This document shows positions 1-56,806 of a stretch of DNA of 64,000 bases, piece by piece. The translations under genes and the position numbers were made by a program. The DNA is from Cyanophora paradoxa CCMP329. Taxonomy: Eukaryota; Plantae; Glaucophyta. The stretch lies in contig QPMI01000651.1 of NCBI GenBank assembly GCA_004431415.1, positions 1 to 64,000 on the forward strand, given 5' to 3'. The notes below the pieces were generated by a model that saw only the letters and a program-made list of their open reading frames with translations, had not been told where the DNA came from and ran no database searches. Each line of letters starts with the position of its first letter. Position 1 is the first letter of the stretch.

Positions 1-135
1 TACCTTGCTCTTGAATAATAGTTTGCAAGAACTGCATTAACCACCTGGTTGTTGTCTCAAGTCCTCCATTCCTACTGCTAATTGGGTTCTGAATTTGTAA
101 TCCAGCATCACATGGAAGCCTCGATGAGTATTCAT
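1..135 (-). CDS. speD: S-adenosylmethionine decarboxylase-like proenzyme, N-terminal part (truncated by window edge, one apparent frameshift)
   Basis: Not in ORF track. Reverse strand from ATG 135 reads MNTHRGFHVMLDYKF, then after a 1-nt shift NPISSRNGGLETTTRWLMQFLQTIIQEQG. This aligns with element 2 MLAKGYHVMLDFQFSQPISDHVGLSKWLMTVSEDIIKKYG. Confidence 0.75.
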
Positions 136-175
136 TTTGAATAATTTAGAAAAATTAAAAAACGCGATTGGTAGA

Positions 176-334
176 ATGCGAACCATCTTAGCAAGAGTGC
201 TACCTTATGAGTTGGTGGATATCATTCTGCTGCACTACCACAAGACCTGTCCAAACTGCTTTGACACATGCATAATCACAAAGGGAAAATGGGGAAGATC
301 TCATTTCTCTCTCAAAGATCTAATCGAAATATAA
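176..334 (+). CDS. Small hypothetical protein (F-box-like LPYELVDIIL followed by CxxC)
   Basis: ATG at 176, divergent from the AdoMetDC gene across a 40-bp AT-rich gap; motif similarity is weak. Confidence 0.4.
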   Translation: MRTILARVLPYELVDIILLHYHKTCPNCFDTCIITKGKWGRSHFSLKDLIEI

Positions 335-592
335 TACTACTGGTTTATCATCTATCACGATTCCTGATGTAGTCTTTTTTCTGTAAGCATGAGAGGATTT
401 CTTGTTGCACTCTCTGCATCCACTTCCCCTTACATGATTAAATGGGTAGGTTTGCAGGATCTTGTTGCATTTGAGGCATCTAACAGAGACCTTCTCTTGT
501 GCTTTCTTATAGACTGTCTCACTGTAATCGAATTTAGCATCACCATGAACCATCATTGCAGATTCTATGAATTTCTTTGTTTTATCATCCAT
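320..592 (-). CDS. Stand-alone zinc-ribbon DNA-binding domain of the DUF723/CapR-like type seen in giant-virus endonucleases
   Basis: FIESAMMVHGDAKFDYSETVY...VSVRCLKC...PFNHVRGSGCREC pattern; no nuclease domain. Confidence 0.6.
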   Translation of the reverse strand: MDDKTKKFIESAMMVHGDAKFDYSETVYKKAQEKVSVRCLKCNKILQTYPFNHVRGSGCRECNKKSSHAYRKKTTSGIVIDDKPVVLYFD

Positions 593-617
593 TCCTCTCT
601 ATATATACCTGAGATTT

Positions 618-1447
618 CTATGGAGCAGTATCCTGCCCGAAAATGGGGAAGTATCGATTTGTGCCGTAATATTCTGCATATGTATTCTGTTTTGCAATAG
701 CATCGGTTCTCTCAGCATAGAGAATGCATTTGTAGATACCAAATCTGGTGGCTCTCACCAAGAATTGGTAATCTTCAAGACCGAAATTCACTCCATGATA
801 AGCAATTCCGAAATTATCATATGGAGTGATCACAACTGCAATATTTGGGGTTCCACCCTCTACTTGACAGACAGCATAAACATCTGGTGGATATCGACAA
901 CCACCTTGTAGTGGTCACCAATCTCAACAAGAGAATCAACTACTGATGTCTGCTCATTCACAACAATTGGGAAGATCTTTATAATATATGGTGCATTCAT
1001 ACTGGGGACATAGGTGCGAATTCTGGTGTTGGGATCAATGGGGTTGGGTTGATCATTTACGAAAAGAGGCGCACCAACAGCTCCACCAATCCGAAGACCA
1101 TCACCAATATATGCTCCCCCCGTTTTGCAGTTAATAGCTCCCGACCGAGATTCAAAAGAGTAAGTAGAAAGAGGATCACCATAACTGTCTGGGTCTCCAT
1201 AATGGGCAGAAAAGTTTGCATTTGTGACAAGGAGTTTCGTTGTCTTAACTATACCATTATTTTTATCACACCTGAGTTCCTGCAATCTCAGTTTATGGTG
1301 GAACCAAAGGTATTCATTGTAGGTTGGACTTTCTGTGGATTGGAGACCTTCTACATCATCAAAGGTAGCATGCTGCAAAAACGTGATTCGCAGGTGCTGC
1401 TAATGATAGTTGGGGTGTAATAATTCGTTCTGGTATTGGGCAGCCAT
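618..1447 (-). CDS. Putative virion/fibre-associated protein A (frameshifted)
   Basis: Joins ATG 1447 (MAAQ...) with ORFs 860-1378 and 618-833. Orthologous to 28357-29200 and paralogous to protein B (shared ELRxDKNxGxVKTTxLLVxNANF). Confidence 0.7.
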
Positions 1448-1470
1448 TTTACATTAAAGTGATATATAAT

Positions 1471-2317
1471 TTATGGGGTTGGGTCATCAATCACATCTGG
1501 TTCCTGGTAACCCTGTGTGAAGATATCTGCAACGTTTACCCCCGAAGTGCCGAAACAGCTGCTATATCTGTCCTCAGTCCATAATCATAGTATTGTAAAC
1601 TCCAACCTCAGTTACAAACAAATCATAGGTAAATGTCAAATTGTTATAAACACAATATCCTCGACCGAAATGGTTTGATGCTTGAACAAAGAATAGGTAA
1701 TTATGACCTGTTTGATTGTTGTTTGCTCTGCACATAGATAGCATTGCTGTGGGAAGCGAATATTTCTTCTTACTCGATCAGTTCCTGTTATAATAACCAA
1801 TTCCGAATTTTCAAGAGTGACAGAGAAGCAACATAGAAATGTAGAAAAGGTTGCTGTGCAACTGGTGTATAGAAACGTATTCGTTGGGGATTCTCTACAT
1901 TTTGTTCAAGAGTATCTGGGACATCATTATACGAAACTGATGAAGAGAGTTGTCCTGAAACACGACAACCACCACCAATAAATGCTCCTCCTGATCTCAC
2001 AGTAACAGCAGCAGAATTCTTGTCGAAATCGAGGGCTTTCAGATCAACACTGTAAGCATCAGGACCTCCATTAGTAGGTTGAAAGAATTCGCATTTGAGA
2101 CAAGGAGTCGAGTTGTTTTAACCACACCAGAATTCTTGTCTGCTCTCAGTTCTTTAACTCGAATAATCGAATTCTTATCAAATGAGTTACCATTGGAATT
2201 GGGTCTCTCTGTGGATTCTAAACCACGAACCTCATCATTAACTTCATGCTGGCGAAAGTGCATAGCAGGGGATCCAAGGGAATATATTGGAAGTTGAACT
2301 CGATTATATTCACCCAT
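1471..2317 (-). CDS. Putative virion/fibre-associated protein B (frameshifted)
   Basis: Starts MGEYNRVQLP at 2317; fragments 2039-2356 and 1788-2000 match the intact orthologue 29220-30065. Confidence 0.7.
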
Positions 2318-2356
2318 TGCTTCTTTTACTAAGAAGGAAAGAAAAATAAACACCAT

Positions 2357-2665
2357 TCAAGCCAAAGCAATTAGATTGGATCCAAGAGATTGGTAAGCGG
2401 TTGTTAGACATTGGATGTTGGATGTCATCGCTTTGAGGTTAGAATCACATTCACCATATTTTGTTACTGGGTCACCATAAGCCGATTGCGCAAGGACATT
2501 AACCAAAAGGTTTTTATATTCATGAACAACCGGTGACAGTTTGTTGGTTTGCTGTATCGTTTTTTCGACAGTTTGTAGTGCGGCTACAAGTTTGATAGTA
2601 TCGAATGCAAGAGCGACAGGCTCAGAAGAAGTAGAAGGAGTTCCACCGAGTGGATAGGTCGCCAT
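2357..2665 (-). CDS. Hypothetical 102-aa protein, element 1 only
   Basis: Clean ORF starting 3 nt after the fibre stop; absent at the equivalent place in element 2. Confidence 0.65.
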   Translation of the reverse strand: MATYPLGGTPSTSSEPVALAFDTIKLVAALQTVEKTIQQTNKLSPVVHEYKNLLVNVLAQSAYGDPVTKYGECDSNLKAMTSNIQCLTTAYQSLGSNLIALA

Positions 2666-2668
2666 TTA

Positions 2669-5600
2669 TTATACTGTGACATTTTTAATTTGGTCTATTT
2701 GACTTTGTAAATCTTTGCATTTCTGCGATAACTCCTTCACTGCTTCAATGAGAACAGGAATTAAACCTGTGTATTCAAGAGATAGGTAGCCATCGTCTTT
2801 TTTAACATTAACTACCTCTGGTATTACCTTTTCTACATCTTGTGCAATTAAACCTAATTTTGTTCCGTCTTTTTCGCTTCCAATTCGTTTAAAACTTACT
2901 CCTTCTAATCTCTCGATTGCTGAAAGAGCGCCGGATATCTTTTTAATATCGGTTTTGTATCTTATGTCACTTCCTTGTGTTAAATAACCTCCAATCCACA
3001 TCCATCCTCCATGATACATGTAACAAATATCAGTATCTTGTTCATTTCGGAATACAAGGGGAATATCTCCCCCTCCTTTCAAATATGTAGAAGTTTGGTT
3101 ACCGAAATGGATACGATTATATCCATCACTTGAACTAAACCAAGTCCCCACAGATCCTGTTAAGATATTTGGTTTACTATAAACGTTATTCCAATGAATA
3201 TAGCCGGTGTGACCACCATAACTATTTCCAACCCAAATTTTCATGTAACTAATACCCATAATATGAACTCTTCCAATCTTTGGTCTAATCCGAATTGTGA
3301 GGAATCGATTACCAAGATGTATTGGAACATTATTTATACCACTGTGGTTACCATCAGGAGATGTGCTGTATGGTTGATAACTATTTACTGATGTAATAAA
3401 AACTTCATTCCCTTGTCGATTCACTCCCCAAATTTCAAAAATTCGTGAGTTAGTCCAAGGTAAATAGGTTAAAAATGCTGTTCCTGTGTGGTATCCATCG
3501 GGTATATCGAAGTCAATCCAAGCGGTAGAAGTTTGGTCATCATATTGATTATTATAGACATATGAACCATAATTATAATATGGATCCCATGCTGAACTCC
3601 ATGCCCATGTCCAACCCTCAGAACATCTATTAAATGCAATACCTCCTACTGTTTTATCTGCTGTGTGAAACTTTGGGACATCATTACCGTTTATTTGGAG
3701 TTTGGTGGTTGCATTAATAGTAGGTGCTGTAATAGTATTATTCACCCAAAAGTTACCATTGTTATAAGATTTTAAAATGGCTGTATCTGCTGAGTTTCTG
3801 AATTCAATTGACACACCATCACCATTTGGTCTCCCTCGTATATATGTGCAATCGCCATTACCAAACCAAATTCGTTCTACTGCATCTGTTGATTTTAACC
3901 ATGTATTTGTTGCCCATGTTGCCGTTCCTGGGAGGTCTGCGGCTGTAATTAATGCGGGGCGACTGTAAATATTATCCCAAGAGATCATACCAACATCATT
4001 ATCTGTTGCCCTCTGCCTACTCCAACCAAAAACTCCTGTGAGATGAATGCGACCTTTTCGACCTTGAACATAAATATACTTGTAAAACTCGCAATTAATT
4101 GATACAAACAAGATAGTATTATTTGTCCCATCATGATTTACTGACTGTATTCCTTGATAATCGTTTACACGTTTTAAGAAATGCTGATTGTTATTGAGAG
4201 TCTGACCATAGATATCAAAATATCTGCCATTATACCAAGGCATATGCTGAATATAAATGATTTCATACCTGTGGGGACAGTCCACCTCATAAAACAACCG
4301 CTACAATCTTCATCATTTTGTGGTGTTGTATAACATCCTGTTTGTCCTGTTCTTGGTGACCAATTCAAATTCCAATTATTTGCGCTTCTATCTGTTGATA
4401 CTACATCTAATTGATCGAAATCATATCCTTTTGGAATTGTGTTTCCACCAATTTGTAGACTAGTAGCGTTTACAGTTCCATTAACTGTCCCACCTGTAAG
4501 AGGTAAATAATTTCCTAGAGCTGCTGTTAACTCTGCATCTGTTGTATAATTATTTAGAGTCGTTCCCAATTCACTTTCTGTTACATAGCTGCTTAAATCT
4601 GCTGTTGTAAGATACCCTTTATTGGTTAGGTAATCATCTGTGACCACACCTGAAAGGGTTGTATTGTGTAAGTTTTTTGCTGCCATCCTCTGATTGACTT
4701 CTAAGGCTCCACCTGATGTCGTTTTTATCCATGCAATCTCACATTTCCCATGATCATCTGTGGGTTGTCCCGCAACGGGAAGATAGTTTACAACTTTCTC
4801 CCTTGTGAATACTATTTTAGGTCTTGCTCCATCATATGCGCTTTGATCTGTTACGTTAATTTGAATAGCTGCTGAAAAATCCGCTACTTGTCCTATTTCT
4901 CCTGGGTGATAATTCGTAACATAGATACTGGGGAAAGTATCGTTTACTCCTACATTGAAATCGCCACTATACACTCCATTTACGATTGGATCCCTGGGTA
5001 ATCTTACTGCAAGAGTTCCCACCATCGGTGTGCCTGTTTCACCTGTAAATGAACCATTGAGACTAACATAATGATCATTCAAAAATAGCCTTTCAGGTGT
5101 ATTAATCGATTGGTAAAGTGTGACTCCATTAAAAACGTTTCCGATTGCATTCAATTGTGCGAATACTGGCTGTTCATCTATTTCACTCCAAATGTGTCTG
5201 TGATTAGAGTTTGTGATCTCTGAGTAGTCATGAGTGTGTGAACTGGGCGGGAAGGTTGAGGGGGGATTTGTTATATGCTCCCATAAATGATCATGTGCAA
5301 AATCTGTGATCTCATCTTTTGTGTGTGTGTGGGCGAAATCTGTTATTTGATCTTTTGTGTGAGTGTGGGCGAAATCTGTAATATCTGCTTTTGTGTGTGT
5401 TTGTTTTGCTAACCAATCTAAAACAACATTCGAAGTGGGATGATGTGGTAGAGTTGCATTTTTGGTAACTGTGAGATTTTCAATAAATATATTGCTCGAA
5501 TTAATTTTAAGATCTTCATTATTCAATATGGGCTGCGTATTTGGAAATCCATACAATAATTGTATATAATATCTAACCGCGTTCTTTTCTTCAATAGATA

Positions 5601-8456
5601 ACGCACGATTGAAAACGATAATTTCGGCAAGATCTCCATTAGCAACAGAAGAACCAAATGATGCAAAATTAGAAGGTGGAAGAAAATCACCCGATGATGT
5701 TCCAATATCAATACCACCCATTCCTACGACAATTTGCTCTGAGGAAACAGTGAAATCCCAATAATTCCACGAATTATAAATATATGATGCATCGAATAAT
5801 GGAGGAGTTGCATTTTCTAAATCATTTTGAATTTGTAGTGAAACACCAAACTTTTGATTTTTACAACCATATCCAATCCAATTTTGATAAGAACTATCCC
5901 TTATACTCAACATATAAGAAGGATTTGTAGTATTGATCCTACCTATAAAGAATAATGTAAGACCTAATGACCAATCTATTGAAACACTATTCCTATAAGC
6001 CATGTTTAATTCTTTCCCAATCGAAATTTGATTGTTTAGGGTTGCATTCAAATAATAATAAACAGTTTCCCAATTCGAATAATTTGTTAGATATGGTATC
6101 TGTGTAGTAACTCTGTTATATATCTGACCTTGATAATATATCAACTGACCATGTTGACCTGATGCTTTCCATGCAAATATACAATTTGGAATAATTGGGG
6201 CTGGATCAATGACAGTAGTAACAGCATAGTAAGGTCTATAAAGTATTTGTATAGTATTTTGTGTTCCAATTGTTATATTTCGATACACTGTAAGATTACT
6301 TGTGTAAATATCATCTGCCCATAGGTTACTTGTCCATATGTTACTTGCTGAAATGTTACTGGTGTAAATGTTACTTGTGACTGTAAGGTTTGTATCATTT
6401 TTAATCACGAATAAAGAAAGAATATTCGTTAGTTCTCCTTCGTCAATATATCCTTGATCTTCTAAATAATCTTCTGTTACCACTCTCGATATATTTTCGT
6501 TGTGAATGTTTTTTGCAGCCATTCTTTGATTGGCTTCCAGAACCCCACCATAGTTTGTTTTAATCCATGCAAGCTCTGCCCTTCCATAGTTATCATTTGC
6601 AGTTCCCACTATGGGAATATAGGAATATTTATCTCGACTGAAAACTATCATTGGTCTTGATCCATCTAGACTGCTTACATCTGCTACATGAACCTGTATA
6701 GCAGAGTTGTAATTTTGGTAGGTTGCTGGGTCTGTTGGGACTCTGAATGTATCTGTGGGAATGTCAGCCTCCATGTAGCTTGACACAAAGATATTTGGTA
6801 TGGTTGCTCCTGGTTCAGGTGGGTTTTCAAAAGAGCCTGGTAATGTCCGAATATGAAGTGGTCCTCTCATGGCTGAATTTGCAAGTGACCCATCCACATT
6901 GACATAGTGTTCATTCAAAAAGATCCTTTCAGGGACATTGCATGTCTGGTAAAGAGAAACTCCCATTAGAGGTTCAACTTTTGAAAATTCTGGTTGGTCA
7001 TTGATCTCATCCCAGGTGTGTTCATGGTTGCTTGCTGCAAACTTATCTGGTATCCCATCCAGATCACCCCAGTCATGCCTGTGATCCTCTGGTGGGAATT
7101 TCTCTGGTTTACCTAATATCTCATCCCAGTCATGGTTGTGATCCTCTGGTGGAAATCTTGCTGGTTTGTTATTGATCTGCTCCCAATCTGGGAAGAACTC
7201 CCAAATCTCTGGGCGAAATCCATCTGGTAATAATTCTTCATGGGTTCATATGGTTGCTCATAATCAACAACTGGTGGTTCGAGACCATCTGCTAAATATT
7301 CCTCATGGGGTTCATAATTCTGCTCATATTCATACTCTTGTGGATCTAAACCATCTGGTAAATACTCTTCCTCATTGGGATCATATTGATCATATTCATA
7401 CTCTTGTGGGTCGAAACCATCAGGTAGGTATTCCTCCTCATCTGGAACGAATTGGTATTCGTCAAGCTCCAAAATATCAATTTCAGGAGGTAAATATTGC
7501 TCATCAATTTGCTTTCTTGGTTCAATTATAGGTTTATTTCGAACCTGCTCCCAACTCACAATGTGTTGACCAAAAGGAACTGTCTCATCTGCTGTGTATT
7601 CTCTTCCTGGTTGCTTTTTGGGTGTTAAATCTGGTGGATCCCATGGTAGTGGGAAGGGAACTGGGACAGGTCCATAATACTCAAAGATCTCTCTTATGGT
7701 CTTCTCACTTACAAGTTTCTCTCCATTTGCATAGACATTGCTTCCATGGATATTTCGCCATTGTCTGGTTCTAATACCAAGATCTTTGGTGTTTGTCACC
7801 AAAGGTAAAAGGTGCCTATCCATTTCGACAAGGTCTGGGTGTAAATGAACTGTTACTGGTTGAGTGGGGCTACTGTTGACAGTGATAGACGCCTTATTCT
7901 TTGCTGTATCACCAGGTAGTTGGAAACCGAATTGTGCATTAGAAGCCGAATTCGCCACAATATCTCTTGGATAAACATTGTTAGTGAACTCGATTTTGTT
8001 GGTTTCTCCATGGGGGGCTATCTGTAATATTTCGGGAATTTGTGCAATTGCATTTGATCCTTCATTATAGATTCTCAAACCACTCTGATGCCCACCCTTC
8101 TCATTTTGAACATTGAATATTAACCTACCACTATCGAATCGAGTTGGAATATCTGGATGGGTTCCACTGGTTTTCAGTTTTCTTGGTCTGCTCCTGGTTG
8201 CTTTAATCTGGGCTACTTGATTCGATTTCACATTCCCCATGCTGAAAGCAACACTCACATCCTCCTTTTCGGGATCCATTTCGTTTATTGAAAGTGCATG
8301 CTCTCTTGGGTGAGTCTTTGAGGGTTCATCTGCACTGTGATCAATTGAGATTGACCCTCTGGCTGTCAAGTTATCGAAATTCACATGTTTGTTATCTGCC
8401 TTCCCTCTTCCTGATGAGGGAATGGTTTGAAGGTTTGCTGGGTAATTGAAACTCAT
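2669..8456 (-). CDS. Giant fibre protein (~1900 aa, frameshifted) with LamG-like domain, HxH repeats and C-terminal peptidase-S74-type intramolecular chaperone
   Basis: ORFs 7113-8456, 4174-6966 and 2669-4297 are collinear with the element 2 fibre. Motifs include YLPLTGGT, HTHTKDQITDFA and terminal SDIRYKTDI...GLIAQDVEKVIPEVV...YTGLIPVLIEAVKEL plus coiled coil. Confidence 0.85.
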
Positions 8457-8505
8457 CCCTGTTTACTCTACTTATAGAGATTTATTAAATTTGAGTTAAG
8501 TAAAG

Positions 8506-10046
8506 ATGCCTTTGAAGATTTGCCTCAGTCTCTCAGGTGGGGAGCTCGTGGTATAATTATTACGAGATTGTTAAAAGAAATCGAAACTCGAACAGGAAAA
8601 AGAGTAATTGACCTTGTTGATCTGGTGAGTGGAACATCCACTGGTGGGATAATTGCGATTGGTCTCAATGTGAAAAATCCCGAATTTCCAAACGAACCTA
8701 AACTTACTGCAACCGATTTGCATTCCACTTATCTCAATCAACTCCCCTTAATCTTTGCAAATCCCAGAAATATTATTGATAATGCACTTTTCAACACCAA
8801 GTATGATGTGACCCCATTGGAGACAGCCATTCTCACTGTTACTGGTGAGTCTCTCATTCAAGACTCTCTCAAAGATGTAGTGATCACAAGTTTTGACACT
8901 GTGAGTATGAAGCCCATTTTTATCACCAATGATAACTCCTACAAATCCATCCCCAGCAAGATTGCTGCAAGATCCACCTCTGCTGCTCCAACATATTTCT
9001 CACCTGTGAACTATGATGGGATGTCTCTAATTGATGGTGCAATCTCAGGTAACAACAATCCCAGTGTCTGTGGTTACAGTCATGCTAAGAAGATCTATGA
9101 TGATGATGATGATATTATAGTGATAAGTATATCCTGTGGTGAAGTCAATGAAACAGATGCTCCAAATGTGGGTTACTCTTATGAAGATGTGAACAGCTGG
9201 GGCATCCTCTCTTGGATTGCTTCGACCTCTGGAAGTCCATTAATCAATATGTTGATGGCTGCAAGTGAACTGTCTGCTCTGGAAAAGATGCAAGAGTTTC
9301 TCCCATACAATGATGATCAAGGATATGCAAGATATTATAGACTCTCTGTTCCACTTCCAAAGACCATAGTAAACTCTTTGGATGATACCTCTAAAATACC
9401 AGATATGATAGATGCAACCGAAATATATATAGCAGCAAACACTGTGATGATTGATAGACTCTGTGATTTACTGGTTGCAAATTACGAAATCAAGAACCCT
9501 GCAAGGTTCTATATATCATCCACTCTGAATAACATACCTCCCATTGATGCTAACTGGTATCTTCTATCAGATGGTGCATTCACTGCTTCATCATCAAAAA
9601 TTGGAAGGGAGGCATTTAAAGCAAGACCTTCCTTGACAGGTTGGGAAGCAAATGCATCTGCTCCTGATGGGATATGGAGTGTTCCCACTGAGTATCTCCA
9701 AGTAACCTTCCCATACATATTTGAGGTTGCATCTATAATTGCATATGGTTCTGGTGTAACAAACGCTTTTATTAAGACCTTCAATGTTGCAACATCACAA
9801 GATGGTGTTTCCTGGTCATTTATCAAGTATGAAGGTGTCAACAGAGTGTTTATGTGTGAAACTATTAATAATGCCCACAACAGTGGTGATGTCTCATACA
9901 GTTCTGGGTATCCCACCTCTATTAGAGACGTTTTCTATATTGGCTACCCTCTGAGGACAAGGTATATTCGAATTTATCCACTTGTATACATCAACACCCC
10001 AACTATGAGAGTGGATGTCACAGGTGCATTTATTCGAAGTGTATGA
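8506..10046 (+). CDS. Patatin-like phospholipase fused to F5/8 type C (discoidin) domain
   Basis: True start MPLKICLSLSGG(G)ARG at 8506 with a 1-nt loss in a G run. GTSTG nucleophile elbow, SAAPTYF, DGA catalytic Asp; C-terminus EYLQV...SQDGVSW...RYIRIYP...MRVDVTG. Confidence 0.9.
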
Positions 10047-46580: not shown

Positions 46581-46585
46581 ACACA

Positions 46586-48270: not shown

Positions 48271-48319
48271 ATCTACTGCTCACTATATAATAGGGGGATG
48301 TTCTTAAGTAGGGGGAGGA

Positions 48320-48455
48320 AAGGCAGGTAAGGCAGAAAAACCGCCTTATTTGAAAACTTTTTCCATTGGCCATTTTACGTTTTTCAAAAACGCAAAATCT
48401 CCATCCAGATATTTTTTTTCAAATAAGGCGCCTTACCTGCCTTACCTGCCTTACC
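48320..48455. repeat. Inverted iteron-like array based on GGCAGGTAA with a 15-bp inner inverted repeat
   Basis: AAGGCAGGTAAGGCAG...CGCCTTATTTGAAAA // TTTTCAAATAAGGCG CCTTACCTGCCTTACCTGCCTTACC. Confidence 0.8.
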
Positions 48456-48500
48456 TTCTTCCAATAACTATACCAATTAATCATCCCCTCCCTCCAGAAA

Positions 48501-48682
48501 TAGAGGGTAGAGGGTAGAGGGTAGAGGGTAGAGGGTAGAGGGTCTGGGTAGACAGGGTAGAGGGTTGTTTGTAAACTTTCCTAGAAAAACCCCCTTTCAT
48601 GGGGAATTTTACAAACAACCCTCTACCCTGTCTACCCAGACCCTCTACCCTCTACCCTCTACCCTCTACCCTCTACCCTCTA
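48501..48682. repeat. Perfect 75-bp inverted repeat of (GGGTAGA)n iterons around a 32-bp spacer; candidate replication origin
   Basis: Arms 48501-48575 and 48608-48682; ends 15 bp from the primase-helicase stop. Confidence 0.9.
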
Positions 48683-48697
48683 CCCACCCTCATATGA

Positions 48698-51175
48698 TTA
48701 TTCACTATCACTTTCAATTCCACATTTTGACTTCAAGCCCACATAGTAAATGGAATTCACACCATTCCTTTTCACCTGTTTCTTAGGAATTCCATTAATC
48801 ACAGTCATAGCTGTTCCAAAGGCTGTTTGGCTCATTTCTTTATCCACTCTGGAATACTCTTTGAATAGATCAGCTGCCTTGATGACGTCACTGCTGCTGT
48901 GGGTGATTTCAAAGTTTGCCTGAAGCCATGTCAGCACTGGGTTGTTTTCAGTGATATATTCCTTGCTGGCCTCTTTGACAGATTCAGGCACTGGGATGAA
49001 GCCCATGGCGCTCACCTCAGTGGTGTATGTGTCAATGAGCAGCCTCATGAAAGCCTGAGCATATCTCTCATCATCTCTAATTCTGCCCATCAGGCTGGGG
49101 TCTGCCTTCTTTTGGCCTTGAATGGGATTCTCCTTGAACTGGTATTCAAAATGGGACACATGGAGGCGCCTTTGAATACCTCCATCTAACTTGGAGAGCT
49201 TTGGTATATCATTTGTCAGCAGGAAGGGGATGAATTGAGGGCTGAATGTAATGGGGTTAGCATGTAGTAAACGAGCAACAAGTTTCTCACCTCCAGTGAT
49301 CTCTTTGATTTTGCCCACCTGAAGCTTGTCACTGGCCTCAGGCTCATTGGAGAAGATGATCCTCACACCCTTCTTATCAGCCAGCTCAGGCACAGGGGCC
49401 CCAGACCTTGGTTTCCCACTGACCCAATAAGAGCTGTCAAGGGGCTGGGCATAATCACCCAGAGCCTTCAGAACCAACTCTTGGAGTGTAGATTTGCCAT
49501 TGGAGCCAGTGCCTGTCCAGATGTGGAAGCGCTGGTCTTTGTTGCCCTTCCCAGAGAGGGCACCTGCCAATGTCCTCACAAGGAATTTGCCAGTCTCTTG
49601 ATCTTTGAATGGCTCATACACGATTTTCTTGATTTCTTCCATGACATTCCCATCAATCATAGGGGCATATGGATAGCCACAAGTCCTACTGACATACTCA
49701 TCAGCTTTGGCTGGGCGAAAGACCTTATTTTGAAGGTCATAGACTCCATTGGTAAACCCAATCAGCTCCTTAGATTCATCCATACTGGCAGCTATTTCAG
49801 TGTCAGCAAAGTGAGCCTTGGCCTCTTTGATGATGGAATCTTTGAATCCACATTTCAGGAGCTGTTTGGAAATTTCAAGGCATTTCTTGGCATTCTCCTC
49901 ATACTTTGAGCTTTCATCTGGATCAGCAGCAGCTGAACGAGTGTTTTCCATTGCCTCCTTCAGAAAAAGCTTCATGACATCAGTGGAAAGCACTTTGCGC
50001 AGTGTATGGGGTTCCTTTTCAGCTCTCCACAGTCCAGTGAGCTTATTCCTGACAAACCAGATGTCTTTTTGATTGGCATCATAGCGGAATTGGTCTTTTT
50101 GTGTGTGGTACAGGACTTCAGCCACATTGTAATGACCCCCATTTGAAGCAATGGCATTTTTAATGGCCTGCTTGAGGTCTCCCTTATTGGTAAACAGCTG
50201 AATATATAGATCCAGATTATCAGCTTTGAGCCAATAGACAAGAGAAGCATATGCCAATGGCTTTACTGAGCTACCTTTTTGGAAGCTCTGCCAAGCCTTG
50301 TCACACGCCTCAGCCCTATACTTGCTGCTCTGTTGGCTGAATTTGTGCCAGATGGCCAGTACTTTGTCCTCAGGCATTTTCTTGTCTTTCATAGTGCTTG
50401 TCAGGGCCAAGCCAACATTAATCCAGTCAGCATAGCCATCAGCTCGTTTTTCACTGAGTCCCATCACAAGCTTTTCTAGCTCTTCAGTGGTGATGATTTC
50501 GCTGGAATAATCATTATTTTTGGGCAGCTGCTGGGCAGGCTCCTCCTTCTCTGGAAGAGTGAGCAGGGCCTCCTTGCCAGTGAGAAGCTGGACAAAGAAA
50601 TCAGTGTCCTCATGGGATGTTAGCTTGGTGAACACAGTGTTCCAGCATGGTTCCTCATAGGTGCTGCTCTTGTCAGCAAGAGCCTTCTCTTTACAGCACC
50701 CAAGGCACACAAGCGCCCTGTTGTTGTTGTAAACAGATGGATCATAGTCCTCATGAGGCTTGAGCCCAGCCCTCTCAAGGAAAACAGGGAAATCCCTGTA
50801 GATGCCATGAAGGGTGGTACATACCATGTGGGCACTCACTTTGTAGCATGGATCCTGTGTGTCTTTTTTTATCAGCAGCCTTGATCTGGTGGAGATGGCA
50901 ATGGTGCTGATGTGGACACCAAGTGCCTTGGCCAGCTTTTCAGCCTTGGAGTTAATTAGCCCAAGTCCCTCATCATCAACCTCATCAACAGGCAGAACCT
51001 GTTCGAAATCAATGTAGAGCTTGGTGAATTTATGGCCACTCAAGTACTCAGCCATGTGCTTGTTGCCTGAGGCAATCAATTTGAGTGCCTCAGTGACCCT
51101 GATGGTCACAGTGCTGGCTTCGCGACTGCCAATGATGCTTGTTAGGAAGGTGCCAATGATGCTGGTGGATGCCAT
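48698..51175 (-). CDS. AEP-type (NCLDV-like) primase, PriCT-2 and D5-like SF3 helicase
   Basis: KLYIDFE, KVSAH, DPSVYNNNR; PriCT-2 ADGYADWINVGLAL...WHKFSQQSSKY...W.SF; IGFTNGVYDL; Walker A GTGSNGKS; DGGIQRR. Confidence 0.92.
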   Translation of the reverse strand: MASTSIIGTFLTSIIGSREASTVTIRVTEALKLIASGNKHMAEYLSGHKFTKLYIDFEQVLPVDEVDDEGLGLINSKAEKLAKALGVHISTIAISTRSRLLIKKDTQDPCYKVSAHMVCTTLHGIYRDFPVFLERAGLKPHEDYDPSVYNNNRALVCLGCCKEKALADKSSTYEEPCWNTVFTKLTSHEDTDFFVQLLTGKEALLTLPEKEEPAQQLPKNNDYSSEIITTEELEKLVMGLSEKRADGYADWINVGLALTSTMKDKKMPEDKVLAIWHKFSQQSSKYRAEACDKAWQSFQKGSSVKPLAYASLVYWLKADNLDLYIQLFTNKGDLKQAIKNAIASNGGHYNVAEVLYHTQKDQFRYDANQKDIWFVRNKLTGLWRAEKEPHTLRKVLSTDVMKLFLKEAMENTRSAAADPDESSKYEENAKKCLEISKQLLKCGFKDSIIKEAKAHFADTEIAASMDESKELIGFTNGVYDLQNKVFRPAKADEYVSRTCGYPYAPMIDGNVMEEIKKIVYEPFKDQETGKFLVRTLAGALSGKGNKDQRFHIWTGTGSNGKSTLQELVLKALGDYAQPLDSSYWVSGKPRSGAPVPELADKKGVRIIFSNEPEASDKLQVGKIKEITGGEKLVARLLHANPITFSPQFIPFLLTNDIPKLSKLDGGIQRRLHVSHFEYQFKENPIQGQKKADPSLMGRIRDDERYAQAFMRLLIDTYTTEVSAMGFIPVPESVKEASKEYITENNPVLTWLQANFEITHSSSDVIKAADLFKEYSRVDKEMSQTAFGTAMTVINGIPKKQVKRNGVNSIYYVGLKSKCGIESDSE

Positions 51176-51249
51176 TCTACTATAGGGTGAGATAATTATT
51201 TCAGTGAACTATACCCTTAAGTACTTTTCGAAAAAAGGAGTAGCTCAAA

Positions 51250-51257
51250 TCAATTTT
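51250..51257 (-). promoter_or_regulatory. AAAATTGA, Mimiviridae-type early promoter motif
   Basis: Exact motif 74 nt upstream of primase-helicase ATG 51175. Confidence 0.55.
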
Positions 51258-51289
51258 TCGGACCCCCCTCCCCCCTGCCCCCTGCCCCC

Positions 51290-51481
51290 TCACACATAGG
51301 GATCCCGCTTTCTCGGCCGCCCCCTCCTGTCTGGGGTCGCCTCCTCAAACAGATACCTGATACACAGGAGAGCCCCAGCCTTGTATGTGCTGACCCTCAC
51401 GTATTTTTTGTGGAGCTCGCGAAACTCTGGATCGTTTTGGATCCTGCGCTTGATGTACCTCATTTGCTTGGTGTACGCCAT
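51290..51481 (-). CDS. Small basic AT-hook protein (63 aa)
   Basis: MAYTKQ start; NDPEFRELHK...RRGRPRKR. Upstream of the primase, as in element 1. Confidence 0.7.
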   Translation of the reverse strand: MAYTKQMRYIKRRIQNDPEFRELHKKYVRVSTYKAGALLCIRYLFEEATPDRRGRPRKRDPYV

Positions 51482-51629
51482 TGCTTGATGTGTTCCCCTT
51501 ATAGTATAGTTGAGATTTCTTTTTAAATAGGGATCGCGGGGTTTATTCTCATTGAGCACTGCGAATTGTCCACAATATAAACATTTAAAGATTATTTTCG
51601 TACCTAGATATAAGTACAACCCCCCAACC

Positions 51630-54600
51630 ATGCCCCGCCCCAGCCACTACCAAATTAAGGAGCTCCAGGACAAGATTCTCGGGAATCTGGCCTTCCTCCT
51701 TGCGAACCACTCCATCAGTGAAAGCGAATATGAATCATACATAAGCCAAACCAACAAGAAGCTCAAGGGGCTTCAAGCTCTCAATCGAGAGCTATTAGGG
51801 AAAATCGAGACCCTTGATGAGACTGATCGCCTTGGCCAAATCCAAGTCGAACAAACTACCACAACTCAAGTCAGAGGAGATGAATACACTACCTTAATAA
51901 ATGAGCATCGCGCTCTGAATAATAAATACATCGATTTCACAATCAGAGCTCAGCACCAGATCCTGACCACTCAAGAGTTTATAGACACCTACTCTGAGGA
52001 ACTCCACACAAGGCTCCAAGATGCCATCAATTCACAAATGTCGATTAAAACTCGCTTTACATTTGTCTGTCGCTTTTCTAAGGCCAATAATTCGAGAGAT
52101 TTTATTACCAAGCACATTTACAGCACCTATGCTATCATGACAAGATCTCGAATCCTCACAAAAGAGACAGCTAAACTTGCCAAGGAATGCCAGTCGCAAA
52201 TTAATGTCACAGATAGCTACAGATTAGATAGCATCCAAGCCCTCAGGGTCATTGTTCTCTCCTTTAAGCCAATCTCAGGAGGAGCATTTATTCCATTGCC
52301 TGAGTGGCTGAAGAATAAACGCGCCATTGTCAATGTTAATAACAAGGACAATAGGTGCTTTGAATACTCCATCCTGAGCTATATTCACAAGGACGAAGTA
52401 AATAGCCACAAGCGCAATGAGACTTCCCAATACAGGAGGTGGTTCAAAAAAGAACTAAATTTCGAGGGCATTGAGTTTCCTGTGAAGGCGGATGCTGATA
52501 CTATTGATCTCTTTGAAAATCTCAATCCAGCAATCTCTGTTAATATTTACGACCCCTCTAACTCTACAGAAGAAATTAATCTACTCCACAACAGCTCCTC
52601 AAGGAACAGGAAACACCAAGTGGATCTGCTGCTAATTACAGACGAAAATGGTAACAGTCATTATACCACAATATTCAGCATGTCCAGAGTCTTAGCTAAA
52701 AATGATAAGCAGCGACTCCATTTCTGTAAAACCTGTTCCAACCACTTCAAGACTGAGGAGAAGCTTCAATCCCACATTCAAAGCAAACGTTGTGTGGATT
52801 GGAAGACAAGTGCTGGAGAGACCCCAAAACAACCCACATTCATTGAATTTGGTCTTAAACATCTCTCAAAGACTGTATTCCTCCCCGTGATTGCCTATTG
52901 CTATTTCGATTATGAAACAGATATTTCTGGTATGTTCAAGATCAAATCAATCTCACTGACAGCTCTTCATAATAATAGAGTAGTACTCACTAAAACCCAC
53001 TCCAACATCTTTGAGCTCCTGAGTACCCTCGACAGCACAGCCCCAGAGCTATTCAAAGCCCTATTTACCAACATCCCAATGTCACTGACCAAAGAGCAGA
53101 AACGTACCCATTACCTTGCTAAAACCTGCTACATCTGTGAGGGTACGTTTTCCCAAGACAACTATAAAGTGAGGGATCATGACCATCAAACAGGCGATTT
53201 TGTAGGCTCAGCCTGTCGCAAATGTAATCTCCACAGACGCACCAGCAATCTCACCAAGATTCCCATAGTGACCAATGATCTGTCCCTATCTGGAACGCAG
53301 ATATTCAAGGCAGTCGCCTTAAATCCCGAAAAAAGGGTGGAAGTCCTCGCAAAATCGTTTGACAACTACATGTCGATCACTTGGGGTTGCTTTAAATTCA
53401 TTGACATCAAAAACTTTATTGATTATGGCGTCCAGAACGTGGAAGGATTAATGGAAAAGTTCCAGCTTTTCCGCCAGAAATCACACAAAACTTTTGGGAT
53501 GGATGCTGCCCACTATGTCTCAAGTCCAGGGCTTTCGTGGGACAGCATGCTATCTATTACCAAGCCTAAAATCGAGCTTCTTTCCAACCTTGATATGTAC
53601 AACATGGTTGAAGGCATGATCAGGGGAGGCCTTTCGATTATGAATCATAAATATGCCAAAAAGGAAAGGGACAGCCACATTATATATTTGGATGCCAATA
53701 ACCTATATGGATATGCCCTATCCCAAAAGCTACCCCTCTCGAATTTCCAATGGCACCCAGAACCCTCAAATTACGACCTGTCATCAGCAGAGGGGGCCAT
53801 CTTAGAAGTTGACATCCATTATCCCCAGCACCTCCATCAACTCCACAAAGAACTGCCTCTTGTTATCAAGAGAGCAGAGGATGGACTACAAGCAGCCTGC
53901 GAAGACATTTGTAATTATGTGGTGTCGAAACCTTTGCTCCAATTCATGGTAGCGCAAGGCTTAAAGGTCACCAAAATCCACAGGGTGCTAACATTTACTC
54001 AGGCTGCCTTTATGAAGCCTTACGTCGAATCCAATGCCCAAAACCGCAAAGCAGCCCCTTCCAAACCCGAAAAGGACTTCTTTAAGATCATGAACAATAG
54101 CCTTTTTGGCAAAACCATTGAGAAAGTGAGAGGAAGGTCTAATGTCAAGATTGCCACCAACGAAAAGCAATTTATGAAATACGCCAGATCGCCCCTACTC
54201 AAAGCAGAAACAAGACTAAGCGATTCAGCAGTAGCCTTCGAAATGCTACAGAAAAATGTCAAGTTAGATAAGCCCATAGCAATTGGGGCAGTTGTTTTAG
54301 ATCTTGCCAAGCTGCGGCTATTTGATTATTATTATAACACCATCAAGCGGAAATGGCCAGACTGTAAACTGCTTTTTACTGATACAGATTCGCTTTGCCT
54401 TCAAATAAATTCGAAAACTATAGCAAAAGACCTACAAGACATTGACACCCACCCCACAGAGCTTGGCAAGTTCAAAGATGAGTTTGAGGGCAGAACCATT
54501 ATTGAATATGCTGGGGTAAGGCCGAAATGCTACAGCATTAAAACAGATGATGAGGAAATAAAAAAGCTGGCAGGTGTTTGTAAGGAGACCATTCAAACAG

Positions 54601-54725
54601 ATCTGTCTTTCCAAGATTATAAAGACCATGTGCTCCACCAAAAACCCAAGCAAATCGAAATGACTGTCCAAAAGAAGCTTGAAAATGAGACCTTCAATGT
54701 GAAGATGTCAAAGATTGCTTTCTAA
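51630..54725 (+). CDS. Protein-primed family B DNA polymerase with degenerate exonuclease
   Basis: MPRP start; DANNLYG, KIMNNSLFGK, TDTDS, GKFKDE; DNRCFEY...SHY; zinc insert CYIC...RDHDH...CRKCNL. Confidence 0.95.
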   Translation: MPRPSHYQIKELQDKILGNLAFLLANHSISESEYESYISQTNKKLKGLQALNRELLGKIETLDETDRLGQIQVEQTTTTQVRGDEYTTLINEHRALNNKYIDFTIRAQHQILTTQEFIDTYSEELHTRLQDAINSQMSIKTRFTFVCRFSKANNSRDFITKHIYSTYAIMTRSRILTKETAKLAKECQSQINVTDSYRLDSIQALRVIVLSFKPISGGAFIPLPEWLKNKRAIVNVNNKDNRCFEYSILSYIHKDEVNSHKRNETSQYRRWFKKELNFEGIEFPVKADADTIDLFENLNPAISVNIYDPSNSTEEINLLHNSSSRNRKHQVDLLLITDENGNSHYTTIFSMSRVLAKNDKQRLHFCKTCSNHFKTEEKLQSHIQSKRCVDWKTSAGETPKQPTFIEFGLKHLSKTVFLPVIAYCYFDYETDISGMFKIKSISLTALHNNRVVLTKTHSNIFELLSTLDSTAPELFKALFTNIPMSLTKEQKRTHYLAKTCYICEGTFSQDNYKVRDHDHQTGDFVGSACRKCNLHRRTSNLTKIPIVTNDLSLSGTQIFKAVALNPEKRVEVLAKSFDNYMSITWGCFKFIDIKNFIDYGVQNVEGLMEKFQLFRQKSHKTFGMDAAHYVSSPGLSWDSMLSITKPKIELLSNLDMYNMVEGMIRGGLSIMNHKYAKKERDSHIIYLDANNLYGYALSQKLPLSNFQWHPEPSNYDLSSAEGAILEVDIHYPQHLHQLHKELPLVIKRAEDGLQAACEDICNYVVSKPLLQFMVAQGLKVTKIHRVLTFTQAAFMKPYVESNAQNRKAAPSKPEKDFFKIMNNSLFGKTIEKVRGRSNVKIATNEKQFMKYARSPLLKAETRLSDSAVAFEMLQKNVKLDKPIAIGAVVLDLAKLRLFDYYYNTIKRKWPDCKLLFTDTDSLCLQINSKTIAKDLQDIDTHPTELGKFKDEFEGRTIIEYAGVRPKCYSIKTDDEEIKKLAGVCKETIQTDLSFQDYKDHVLHQKPKQIEMTVQKKLENETFNVKMSKIAF

Positions 54726-54736
54726 TCCCAATATAG

Positions 54737-56105
54737 ATGTCATCAAAGATCACACGCAGACAAACAGAGTACGATGTGAGTATATTGCCAATCCCAATCC
54801 CTCAAGAGGAGAGAGGGGGTCGCATTCAGAAAAAGAGTGACCTCAAAGCTTTAGTTCCTGTGGATATCCCAACTGCCATTGCTGTGCCCCACTTGGATCC
54901 CTTAGCAAGGACATTCTATGACACCAAGGTAGGATTTAAAGGCCTTGCTTCATTGGCCAAAGAGCTTCCAGATGTGCCAAGAAAGACAATCCGTAGATTC
55001 TATGACGCCCAAGAAATCAACCAAATAAATAAACCCCTCCCATCTGCCAAGAAGACTGCCTATATCCCAATAAGACAGCCACTCGACTGCTATGCCATAG
55101 ACCTAATCTTTTATCCCTCATATAGCAAACAGAATCAAGGCTATAACACATTCCTCACAGCTGTAGAAAATACCACAAGGCTCGGCTTTATTATTCCAAT
55201 GAGGGGAAAGACAGCAGAAAGCACATTGAACGCATTTAAGGAGCTTGAGCAACAAGTTCCACGTCCAATAATCAAGATACAAAGTGATGCTGGGAGCGAA
55301 TTCCTGAACAAGGTATTTAAAGACCATTTAGAAACCCAGATGATTGAGCACCAAGTTTCGCAGGTTGGAGATCACAATAGCCAAGGCCGAATAGAGGCCT
55401 TTAATCGCACAATAAAGAAGCTAATTAACTCGTATTGTATAGCGAATAATACTGTAAACTTTTTCGACAAGCTCCAAGATTTTGCCTACAACTACAATAA
55501 TACCATCCACTCAGCAACGGGGATGAAACCAGCAGAGACCACAGAGGTACATGTTCCCCTCATACTCGCAAAAGAAAACGAGAAATTCATGAAGTCAATT
55601 GAATATCTAAAGGACTATCCAACGGGAACCCACGTGAGAACTAAAATAGAGAAGGGTCCATTCGCCAAGCAGGGCAATAATTGGAGCCGCGAAATATTTA
55701 CAATAGAAGGAGTGGAGGGGTTCAAGTTTAGATTGAGGGACATTGCCGGAAAAATGATTGATCGACTTTATGCCCACTACGAATTACAGAAAGTGGAAGC
55801 CGTGGAGTTTCTGGAAGCCCCATCAATAAATGTCATTGAAGAGGCAAAGAAAGAGGCCAGAACAGAGCGACTGTTGGCCAGAGAGGGATTGAGAGGGCTC
55901 CAAATGTGCCGGATAAACCTTTATTGGAGGACAGAGCAGGGAAGAAGAAGAAACAAGGGAGAGAGTTGGAAAGATTGAGGGTGGCAGGGACAGAGAGATT
56001 AGCAGGGGAGCAGAGGCAGTAAGGTGGTATAGAGATTTCTCAAATTCAAAGGAGACCTATGAAGCTCCAGCAATTTCCACGAGATCAAGGAGGAGGGCAG
56101 GATGA
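54737..56105 (+). CDS. Polinton-type rve integrase (two apparent 1-nt losses in the C-terminal tail)
   Basis: YAIDLIF, IQSDAGSEF, GRIEAFNR. Restoring G runs near 55886 and 56006 gives ...RWYRDFSNSKETYEAP..., matching element 1. Confidence 0.92.
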
Positions 56106-56152
56106 CACATCTGTTCCACATTATTGTTTTTTCTTAGCTATTGGTATTCAAA

Positions 56153-56553
56153 ATGCTTGCCAAAGGTTACCATGTGATGCTTGATTTCCAATTCAGCCAA
56201 CCAATTAGCGACCATGTGGGGCTCTCTAAATGGCTCATGACTGTCAGTGAAGACATCATCAAGAAATATGGAATACAGGTTGTCCACAAACATGCTGAGA
56301 TTTTTGATGGCACCAAATCACCCCTGGATTTGCCCAAGTATTATTATTAGATGAAAGCCATTGCTCTGCTCATTGCTACAGTGATCAAGGCATGTTAGCA
56401 ATAGATATATTCAGCTGTGGAAAACAGGCAGAAAGGAATACAAGTTTAATTGCTTTTGAGCTGGAGGAGGAGATAAACAAATATGCTGTTGGATTTGGGG
56501 CAGTGATCAAAAAGAGATTACACCATGAGAAGAGGAGGTTTGAACATGGATGA
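56153..56553 (+). CDS. speD: S-adenosylmethionine decarboxylase-like proenzyme (~133 aa, one apparent frameshift)
   Basis: MLAKGYHVMLDF...VVHKHAEIF; adding one C to the run at 56321-56324 continues PGFAQVLLLDESHCSAHCYSDQGMLAIDIFSCG, i.e. the ESH autocleavage and DIFxCG motifs. Confidence 0.85.
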
Positions 56554-56658
56554 GAGAGGGTAGAGAGGGTAGAGAGGGTAGAGGGTTATATGTAAAAATT
56601 CCCGCGAGAAGAGATTTCCCTTAGAAAGTTTACAAACAACCCTCTACCATGTCTACCC
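56554..56658. repeat. Diverged, inverted second copy of the GGGTAGA iteron array
   Basis: GGGTAGAGGGTTATATGTAAAA...AAAGTTTACAAACAACCCTCTACC resembles the reverse complement of the core of 48501-48682. Confidence 0.85.
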
Positions 56659-56660
56659 AC

Positions 56661-56806
56661 TCCCTGCTGGTACCCAAAAGACGTAATTAATACCCTAAGA
56701 CCTAAAAGAAATGCTTACTACCTTAGTGCCTAAAACGCGCACACATAGGGATACCCCTGTTCCAAGCCTGTAGGCCGAAGGCCGGAGGGCTTGGAACAGG
56801 GGTATC
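56661..56806. repeat. Right TIR of element 2 with terminal hairpin (outer 9 bp missing)
   Basis: Stem 56750-56768 / 56788-56806, loop containing GGCC-GAA-GGCC. Confidence 0.92.

What the first reader, a model, noticed from the sequence alone, without database searches (positions are those of the whole stretch)
1..56806. Two sibling, near-intact endogenous Polinton-like viruses with an unusual gene set
Seen: two elements share MCP, two pentons, ATPase, pPolB, rve integrase, primase-SF3 helicase, giant fibre, patatin-discoidin and AdoMetDC. Known: canonical Polintons carry pPolB, integrase and an adenain-like protease; no such protease is visible in the near-complete element 2. Inference: a distinct PLV lineage, probably still able to form virions.
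Basis: partly seen in the sequence, partly recalled or inferred. Interest (0 to 1): 0.75.

Follow-up and report, generated by a model that had tools for sequence, protein, structure and literature searches.

The report
Algal proviruses with proofreading-less polymerase
Two related ~28-kb Polinton-like viruses sit side by side in what is likely the genome of the alga Cyanophora; their family and gene set were already catalogued, but their DNA polymerase has lost its proofreading residues and likely works with a swappable primase-helicase, and sister copies show open reading frames, so the family is likely still able to make particles.

Summary
Both elements are real: element 1 (1-26714, left end off-window) and element 2 (28172-56806, terminal repeats). 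The major capsid protein folds as a double jelly roll; no adenain protease was found. The host is likely the glaucophyte Cyanophora. The lineage is divergent but not undiscovered: Bellas 2023 lists these capsids (366 hits, two unnamed 'new' clusters), and Bulzu 2025 Table S6 already tabulates the gene set in 156 glaucophyte elements (protease 0, pPolB 49, rve 85, lipase 89, AdoMetDC 66). Lacking a protease is normal for PLVs. New here: (i) all 9 tested frameshifts of element 2 match one-base homopolymer differences in short-read contigs, so the family has open frames, under purifying selection; (ii) both pPolBs keep polymerase, vOTU and EndoVII motifs but have lost the Exo I/II residues and ~93 residues with Exo III, which 117-119 of 119 relatives keep. 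That is likely a third exonuclease loss paired with a helicase, as in mavirus. The swapped primase-helicase/iteron cassettes and hairpin ends were found before by this scan on other DNA of the same genome. Verdict: new variant of a known kind.

The parts
1..26714 (.). Element 1 (left end lies outside the window)
   Evidence: GC 0.40; end fixed by the terminal palindrome and by a published gene model in which the same end runs into another MCP
2..135 (-). AdoMetDC N-terminal fragment, cut by window edge, broken
   Evidence: tblastn to element-2 AdoMetDC E 0.003; frames
621..2317 (-). Two paralogous fibre-associated genes, broken
   Evidence: 45-86% to element-2 counterparts in several frames
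2669..8456 (-). Fibre locus, 1929 codons in three pieces, C-terminal S74 chaperone
   Evidence: Peptidase_S74 E 8e-16; PHROG tail-fibre hits
8506..10046 (+). Patatin-discoidin fusion; GxSxG and DG motifs present, broken near the start
11323..12741 (-). rve integrase, unbroken
   Evidence: PF00665 E 0.002; 55% to element 2
12907..16188 (-). pPolB: putative terminal protein, vOTU, EndoVII insert, dead exonuclease, intact polymerase motifs
16578..16712 (.). Palindromic 9-nt iteron array just downstream of the helicase gene; likely origin
   Evidence: (z -12.6)
16800..19163 (-). Prim-Pol primase fused to D5-type SF3 helicase
   Evidence: PF09250, PF08706, PF19263; Walker A
20048..20782 (-). Conserved 244-aa ORF of unknown function beside the ATPase
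   Evidence: 88% to element 2; dN/dS 0.04
20834..21592 (-). A32 packaging ATPase
   Evidence: Pox_A32 E 4e-9
21655..23022 (-). Major capsid protein
   Evidence: 87% to element-2 MCP
23077..24087 (-). Probable minor capsid protein (penton) 1
   Evidence: recalled motifs, position; weak match to penton 2; fold not confirmed
24116..25048 (+). Probable minor capsid protein (penton) 2, unbroken
   Evidence: 2 unnamed homologues
25490..25940 (.). Two further copies of the element-1 iteron palindrome near the end
26620..26714 (.). Terminal 95-nt hairpin palindrome of element 1
   Evidence: z -11.7, 0 of 200 shuffles
26715..28171 (.). Spacer between the elements, host-like
   Evidence: GC 0.53; no Pfam hit
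28172..56806 (.). Element 2, 28,635 nt, both ends present; right end lacks the outermost 9 nt of the palindrome
28172..28325 (.). Left terminal repeat beginning with a 75-nt hairpin palindrome
   Evidence: z -11.0; 132 of 145 identical to the right arm
28357..30065 (-). Two paralogous fibre-associated genes (one broken)
30106..39432 (-). Giant fibre locus, 3109 codons in four pieces, with 12-aa tail repeats and a tip unlike element 1
   Evidence: PTR and PHROG tail hits; 36-nt x19 array
39487..41041 (+). Patatin-discoidin fusion in three pieces
   Evidence: breaks match short-read indels
41031..41965 (-). Probable penton 2 in two pieces
   Evidence: break matches a short-read indel in 4 of 4 runs
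41995..43005 (+). Probable penton 1
43060..44430 (+). Major capsid protein, double jelly roll
   Evidence: model pTM 0.72; Foldseek E 3e-18; Z 27.9 to PBCV-1
44484..45266 (+). A32 packaging ATPase
   Evidence: Pox_A32 E 8e-11
45295..46029 (+). Conserved 244-aa ORF
48316..48685 (.). Two palindromic iteron arrays (9-nt and 7-nt words) downstream of the helicase gene; likely origin
48698..51175 (-). AEP-type primase, PriCT-2, D5-type SF3 helicase
   Evidence: PF08707, PF08706; other copies diverge at its start codon
51630..54725 (+). pPolB, exonuclease-dead as in element 1
54737..56100 (+). rve integrase; two breaks in the C-terminal tail
   Evidence: PF00665 E 1e-5
56153..56553 (+). Class 1b AdoMetDC-like gene in two pieces, ESH motif present
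   Evidence: break matches a short-read indel
56553..56665 (.). Copy of the 7-nt iteron palindrome beside the right terminal repeat
   Evidence: (z -5.5)
56662..56806 (.). Right terminal repeat with truncated hairpin

Best explanation
These are two integrated members of a divergent, multi-copy Polinton-like virus family, likely of the glaucophyte Cyanophora, whose protein-primed polymerase has lost its proofreading residues and likely copies the genome together with a swappable primase-SF3 helicase that would load at its own palindromic repeat array. Shown: double-jelly-roll capsid, A32 ATPase, rve integrase, polymerase with intact polymerase/vOTU/EndoVII motifs and missing Exo I-III, two unrelated primase domains each followed by its own repeat palindrome, hairpin ends, open frames and purifying selection in sister copies. 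Inferred steps: rve inserts the linear genome; the host likely keeps it silent by CpG methylation; when active, the helicase unwinds from the internal or subterminal palindromes, the polymerase (terminal protein released by vOTU) elongates and completes the ends, and the ATPase fills a capsid with two penton types and long phage-like fibres, without a maturation protease; patatin-discoidin likely helps entry. Dependence on a giant virus is plausible but untested.
For: MCP fold. Polymerase: Exo I Asp kept in 118 of 119 other homologues and Glu in 119, Exo II Asn 119 and Asp 117, Exo III Tyr 118 and Asp 119; Exo I Asp, Exo II Asn/Asp and Exo III Tyr are absent in both elements and in P0006; the span that holds Exo III is 35 residues against 124-177. 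vOTU Cys/His, Pol A/B/C and EndoVII residues kept. The three exonuclease-dead proteins form one branch, SH 100, with exonuclease columns removed (46 of 122 rows). Krupovic 2024 section 10 links exonuclease loss with helicase gain in mavirus and PLVs; Jeong 2023 reports conserved Exo motifs across Polinton pPolBs (passages). Cassette: primase domains differ, each iteron word clusters beside its helicase and near an end; in 3 of 3 DNA runs other copies leave the window sequence at the helicase start, and helicase contigs have about a third of the depth of neighbouring genes. Integrity: 6 of 6 and 3 of 3 breaks in the laid stretches match one-base indels in short-read contigs, all 9 at runs of 3-5 equal bases against 11% background; dN/dS 0.04-0.12; 44 of 53 classified substitutions are synonymous, none a stop. 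Host. Viral genes are methylated and giant-virus remnants occur in C. paradoxa (PMC12344493 passages).
Against: No particle, free genome or transcript was observed. Element 2's right end is 9 nt short and has no target-site duplication, so this copy may be unable to excise. Pentons are not confirmed by fold. The origin role of the palindromes and the polymerase-helicase partnership rest on position and analogy. In Bulzu Table S6, pPolB (49), D5 helicase (40) and SF1 helicase (34) are counted per group, not per element, so co-occurrence is not shown. The tree has no mavirus pPolB and no root, so independence of the loss is inferred from the EndoVII insert and the nearest homologues.
Confidence: 0.68

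Rival explanations
1. The primase-helicase is a second, independent replicase caught during replacement; the exonuclease loss is unrelated, or marks a pPolB reduced to priming and finishing the ends while host polymerases copy the bulk.
For: Elements with two replicases bracketed by repeats are described as replicase turnover (10.64898/2026.10.13.758929 parts 3-4; Halocafeteria preprint passages). The helicase gene is swapped among copies.
Against: Two elements whose pPolBs are only 41% identical both keep a primase-SF3 gene next to pPolB; a swap of one helicase for another in the same slot suggests the slot is needed. Polymerase motifs are intact.
Confidence: 0.3
2. The elements are decaying fossils or transposon-like copies that no longer form virions.
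For: Many frameshifts in the window; truncated right end and no TSD; CpG observed/expected 0.5-0.6 against 1.24 in the flank.
Against: 9 of 9 tested breaks look like homopolymer errors; capsid genes under strong purifying selection; fibre tips differ between siblings, as expected for receptor-binding proteins of an infectious particle (inference).
Confidence: 0.15
3. They belong to an already named PLV group (Aquintoviricetes or one of the NCLDV-like groups of Bellas and Sommaruga 2026) and are no separate lineage.
For: Protease-less module is typical of Aquintoviricetes; MCP is structurally closest to nucleocytovirus capsids, as reported for most PLVs; two mCP genes occur in Trimcap B.
Against: Bellas 2023 puts C. 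paradoxa MCPs in clusters 20 and 28, marked 'new' with no group name; only 2 of 156 glaucophyte elements hit the PLV MCP profile of Bulzu 2025; 5 hits in 1.84 billion proteins; the 2026 framework text does not mention Cyanophora.
Confidence: 0.35
4. They are canonical Polintons that lost the maturation protease.
For: pPolB plus rve plus terminal repeats; the pPolB's nearest exonuclease-positive relatives are EndoVII-type proteins, one named from a sea anemone.
Against: MCP outside the Maverick-Polinton clusters; extra primase-helicase; dead exonuclease; replicases move between capsid lineages.
Confidence: 0.08

Closest known systems
Cyanophora paradoxa endogenous PLVs in Bellas et al. 2023 (PMC10120064; Tables S2, S4) and Bulzu et al. 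2025 (PMC12220804; Table S6)
   Same: Same capsid family (P0001 is a Table S2 entry, 59% identical; a 465-aa entry is visibly closer); same gene set: ATPase, mCP, pPolB, rve, D5/Prim-Pol/PriCT-2, S74, lipase, AdoMetDC, no protease; patatin-discoidin and tail-repeat fibres mentioned in the text.
   Different: In what I read they are only counted: no group name, genome description, polymerase analysis, origin or end structure, or test of the frameshifts.
Mavirus and EMALE virophages (Virophaviricetes)
   Same: rve integrase, exonuclease-less pPolB with TP and vOTU, separate SF3 helicase (Krupovic 2024).
   Different: MCP fits mavirus far worse than nucleocytovirus capsids (Z 15.3 vs 27.9); no maturation protease; pPolB is of the EndoVII-bearing type and keeps a degenerate exonuclease scaffold; helicase carries a primase.
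Maverick-Polintons (Polintoviricetes)
   Same: pPolB, rve, ATPase, MCP, mCP, terminal repeats; polymerase 32-38% identical to EndoVII-type pPolBs.
   Different: No adenain, unrelated MCP cluster, dead exonuclease, added primase-helicase, about 28 kb.
Halocafeteria seosinensis virophages and PLV subtype 4 with terminal palindromes (10.64898/2026.07.28.741278, passages)
   Same: Palindromes at the ends of the terminal repeats; some elements with pPolB plus D5 primase-helicase.
   Different: There the palindromes go mainly with non-pPolB replicases; different host and capsid.
Multi-replicase and tandem polisuviruses (Barth, Ha, Aylward, 10.64898/2026.10.13.758929)
   Same: Tandem sibling elements with 70-78% identical capsid modules and different replicases, with repeat arrays and palindromes.
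   Different: Parts 1-4 of 5 do not discuss exonuclease loss or helicase-matched iterons; figures and supplements not seen.

Membership tests
Polinton-like viruses (broad sense) | [quoted passage not shown] | tested here: met
Polinton-like viruses (broad sense) | A32-type packaging ATPase | tested here: met
   Pox_A32 above cut-off in both
Polinton-like viruses (broad sense) | [quoted passage not shown] | tested here: inconclusive
   no Pfam hit, model pLDDT 38, weak paralogy E 0.007; motifs recalled
Polinton-like viruses (broad sense) | 14-40 kb element with terminal inverted repeats and an integrase | tested here: met
   28.6 kb, 145-nt repeats, rve
Aquintoviricetes | Reduced morphogenetic module without maturation protease | tested here: met
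   no hit; remaining gaps too small or repetitive
Aquintoviricetes | MCP/ATPase place with TsV, PgVV or Dino groups | not testable with these tools
   reference profiles not held; Bellas 2023 leaves clusters 20 and 28 unnamed
Polintoviricetes (Maverick-Polintons) | pPolB and rve integrase | tested here: met
Polintoviricetes (Maverick-Polintons) | Adenain/Ulp1-type maturation protease | tested here: not met
   on near-complete element 2
Polintoviricetes (Maverick-Polintons) | pPolB with conserved Exo I-III motifs | tested here: not met
Polintoviricetes (Maverick-Polintons) | 5-6 bp target-site duplication | tested here: inconclusive
   none found, but the right end is truncated
Polintoviricetes (Maverick-Polintons) | Mavpol-type MCP | tested here: inconclusive
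   5 hits in 1.84 billion, none a named Polinton; published clusters not labelled Mavpol
Virophaviricetes (mavirus-like) | Virophage-type MCP | tested here: not met
   Z 15.3 mavirus and 16.5 Sputnik against 27.9 PBCV-1
Virophaviricetes (mavirus-like) | Maturation protease | tested here: not met
   as above
Virophaviricetes (mavirus-like) | Exonuclease-less pPolB with separate SF3 helicase and rve (works like mavirus) | tested here: met
Virophaviricetes (mavirus-like) | Replication depends on a giant virus | not testable with these tools
   giant-virus remnants reported in C. paradoxa are only circumstantial
Mriyaviruses and NCLDV-like PLV groups | HUH endonuclease, VLTF2/3, Mriya48 | tested here: inconclusive
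   no such Pfam hit; Mriya48 profile not held; the 244-aa ORF is unassigned

The most novel reading that the evidence does not exclude
A glaucophyte-specific, still infectious virus lineage that lost polymerase proofreading independently of mavirus and of pPolB-SF1 PLVs, keeps an EndoVII nuclease inside the dead exonuclease domain, and obligately plugs in interchangeable primase-helicase-plus-origin cassettes: a third natural test of the proposed exonuclease-for-helicase trade-off.
Probability: 0.4. Interest if true: 0.68.

Novelty: new variant of a known kind. Interest (0 to 1): 0.5.

Why it matters
The exonuclease-helicase trade-off in these viruses rests on two cases; an independent third case with many copies in one culturable alga makes it testable by census and by enzyme assay. 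The read evidence turns apparently broken proviruses into a family with open frames, the best current candidate for a small DNA virus of glaucophytes, an early-branching algal group. The gene set itself is not new.

Tried and rejected
No whole genome was held, so no copy census. Protein atlas gave no answer. No RNA holder listed; the one RNA-labelled run laid covered next to nothing: no evidence either way. Penton-1 structure failed. pPolB profile found no solved relative. No tRNA. No Pfam family in 41 of 88 flank and spacer frames scanned, so the host gene is unnamed. AdoMetDC as a unique trait rejected: a text search found 0 papers but Bulzu Table S6 lists it in glaucophyte (66), Rhodomonas (45) and Cryptomonas (10, 17) elements. 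Chimeric assembly at the right junction is unlikely: one 1706-nt contig with 0 differences starts 30 nt inside the element in 3 of 3 DNA runs, one letter short of the tool's bridging rule. dS was saturated for ATPase, rve and pPolB. No complex prediction was run.


Full report
Observation. The window holds two low-GC elements separated by 1.46 kb and followed by GC-rich, intron-rich host DNA. Element 2 runs from 28172 to 56806 with 145-nt terminal repeats (132 of 145 identical). Element 1 ends at 26714 and starts left of the window. The two share MCP (87%), ATPase, two probable pentons, a 244-aa ORF, patatin-discoidin, rve, pPolB, a primase-SF3 helicase and very long fibre loci. AdoMetDC is complete only in element 2; element 1 shows a fragment at the edge. 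The MCP model (pLDDT 65, pTM 0.72) matches iridovirus and chlorovirus capsids at E 3e-18 and Z 27.9, well above Sputnik (16.5) and mavirus (15.3). No capsid-maturation protease was found in 186 frames scanned in Pfam or 25 in PHROGs; element 2's uncovered gaps are 185, 427 and 1676 nt, the last mostly tandem repeats. The penton label is not confirmed by fold.

Host and prior knowledge. The only MCP relative among 7998 scored candidates is a Cyanophora paradoxa protein; a profile read against 1.84 billion representatives gave 5 hits, one of them spurious-looking. Bellas 2023 (main text parts 1-4 of 7 and supplement rows read) counts 366 MCP hits in C. paradoxa in clusters 20 and 28, both marked new and unnamed, and lists that same protein. 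One of its gene models begins with the exact translation of element 1's terminal hairpin, which ties the window to this host species and fixes the element end. Bulzu 2025 (passages, sections 9 and 11, Table S6) tabulates 156 glaucophyte elements: all nine protease columns 0, pPolB 49, rve 85, D5 40, Prim-Pol 8, PriCT-2 15, S74 37, lipase 89, AdoMetDC 66, and mentions patatin-discoidin fusions. A protease-less module is normal for PLVs and two mCP genes occur elsewhere. So the 'unusual gene set' is catalogued, though the lineage has no name in what I read; supplements of the bioRxiv papers were closed and may cover it.

Are they intact? Twenty DNA runs of one organism label hold three quarters of the sampled words of element 2. 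In 37000-46900 all 6 frameshifts, and in 48700-57000 all 3, coincide with one-base indels in short-read contigs of 2 to 4 runs each; all 9 touch runs of 3-5 equal bases, against 11% background, and the host flank shows the same kind of difference. Contigs merge copies, so this shows open frames in the family rather than in this copy. Element contigs are roughly 10-20 times deeper than the unique flank contig in three runs (depth is only a rough guide). Between siblings dN/dS is 0.12 for MCP and penton 1, 0.06 for patatin and 0.04 for the 244-aa ORF; of 53 substitutions classified (of 80 shown; 23 in broken or non-coding parts and 4 clustered ones dropped; 239 more not shown) 44 are synonymous and none is a stop.

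The polymerase. The best relative is one full-length unnamed protein (P0006, 43%); the other 119 listed are EndoVII-type pPolBs at 32-38% (120 of 377 hits listed). In these 119 the Exo I Asp/Glu, Exo II Asn/Asp and Exo III Tyr/Asp are kept in 117-119. Both elements and P0006 lack the Exo I Asp, both Exo II residues and the Exo III Tyr, and the span holding Exo III is 35 residues against 124-177. vOTU Cys/His, the EndoVII residues and Pol A, B, C are intact. The three form one branch with SH 100 after removing exonuclease columns (46 rows, unrooted, no mavirus). Krupovic 2024 (passages and section 10) describes exonuclease loss only in mavirus and pPolB-SF1 PLVs, each with a helicase gain; Jeong 2023 (passages) found Exo motifs conserved in Polinton pPolBs. 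Searches found no report of this case. I read it as a likely third loss.

Helicase cassette and ends. The helicases align only in their C-terminal 490 residues (33%); the primase domains are Prim-Pol and AEP+PriCT-2. Each gene is followed by a palindromic array of its own word, repeated near an element end. Reads show other copies leaving the window sequence at the helicase start, with lower depth over this gene, so the slot is refilled within the family. Both elements end in long hairpins (z -11). I noted these before consulting earlier notes; the scan had reported the same traits on other pieces of this genome, which is no independent support. End palindromes and two-replicase elements are in print.

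Mechanism. Likely cycle: rve-mediated insertion; methylation-linked silence (C. paradoxa methylates viral genes and carries giant-virus remnants; passages; CpG depletion); helicase loading at the palindromes; elongation and end completion by the non-proofreading pPolB; ATPase-driven packaging without a maturation protease; entry helped by fibres and patatin-discoidin. Gene content, motifs and selection are shown; each functional step is inferred. The main rival is that the helicase is a second replicase in transit.

Verdict. Real, a divergent PLV family already counted in two surveys, likely functional at family level, with one feature I did not find in print: an exonuclease-dead, EndoVII-bearing pPolB beside an exchangeable primase-helicase. 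New variant of a known kind; interest 0.5. Other papers seen: PMC12721341 abstract only; PMC9992855 passages; 10.64898/2026.06.19.733378 abstract, passages, sections 6-7; 10.64898/2026.10.13.758929 parts 1-4 of 5. Penton, AT-hook and REJ motifs are recalled, not from a call.

Noticed in passing
window 26627-26713 versus Bellas 2023 Table S2 gene_58741: The first 29 residues of that published 'MCP' are the translation of element 1's terminal hairpin, followed by a different MCP: an element-1-type end nested in another PLV's capsid gene.
   Followed up: partly
window 26620-26714 and 28172-28246: The two terminal hairpins differ in sequence but share the same outermost 7 bases at both sides of the palindrome.
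   Followed up: partly
window 1-56806: CpG is depleted (0.61 and 0.50 observed/expected) and TpG/CpA raised in the elements, against 1.24 in the flank; fits long exposure to host methylation or simply viral composition.
   Followed up: partly
window 56807-58482: The flank next to element 2 has about half the read depth of the host gene beyond 58400, so it may be present on one haplotype or the gene may be duplicated.
   Followed up: no
window 58900-63600: GC-rich, intron-rich host gene for a probable membrane protein; looks REJ/PKD-like (recalled), no Pfam hit on exon frames.
   Followed up: partly
window 19361-19597, 46058-46270, 51290-51631: Small basic ORFs ending in a GRP(R)K-like motif, possibly AT-hook DNA-binding proteins (recalled); the first two are homologous (E 3e-8).
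   Followed up: no
window 20048-20782 and 45295-46029: The 244-aa unknown ORF has the lowest dN/dS measured (0.04); likely a core virion or packaging factor.
   Followed up: no
window 320-760, 2357-2665, 10998-11321, 25032-25502: Element-1-only ORFs: an HNH-associated zinc finger fragment (PHROG endonuclease E 6e-11), a DUF5710-like ORF and two unknowns.
   Followed up: no
window 10500-10920 and 46988-47690: Non-coding tandem arrays (11-nt x13; 31-nt x6 and x8) separate the structural and replication modules in each element, at different places.
   Followed up: no
P0006 (6.3-kb contig), P0002, P0126: Relatives from unnamed sequencing runs show the exonuclease-dead pPolB and this capsid family outside the window; their hosts are unknown.
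   Followed up: partly
window 8500-25050 versus 39487-56000: Gene order differs: the capsid block is inverted and moved relative to the fibre-patatin block, and the helicase faces pPolB differently.
   Followed up: no
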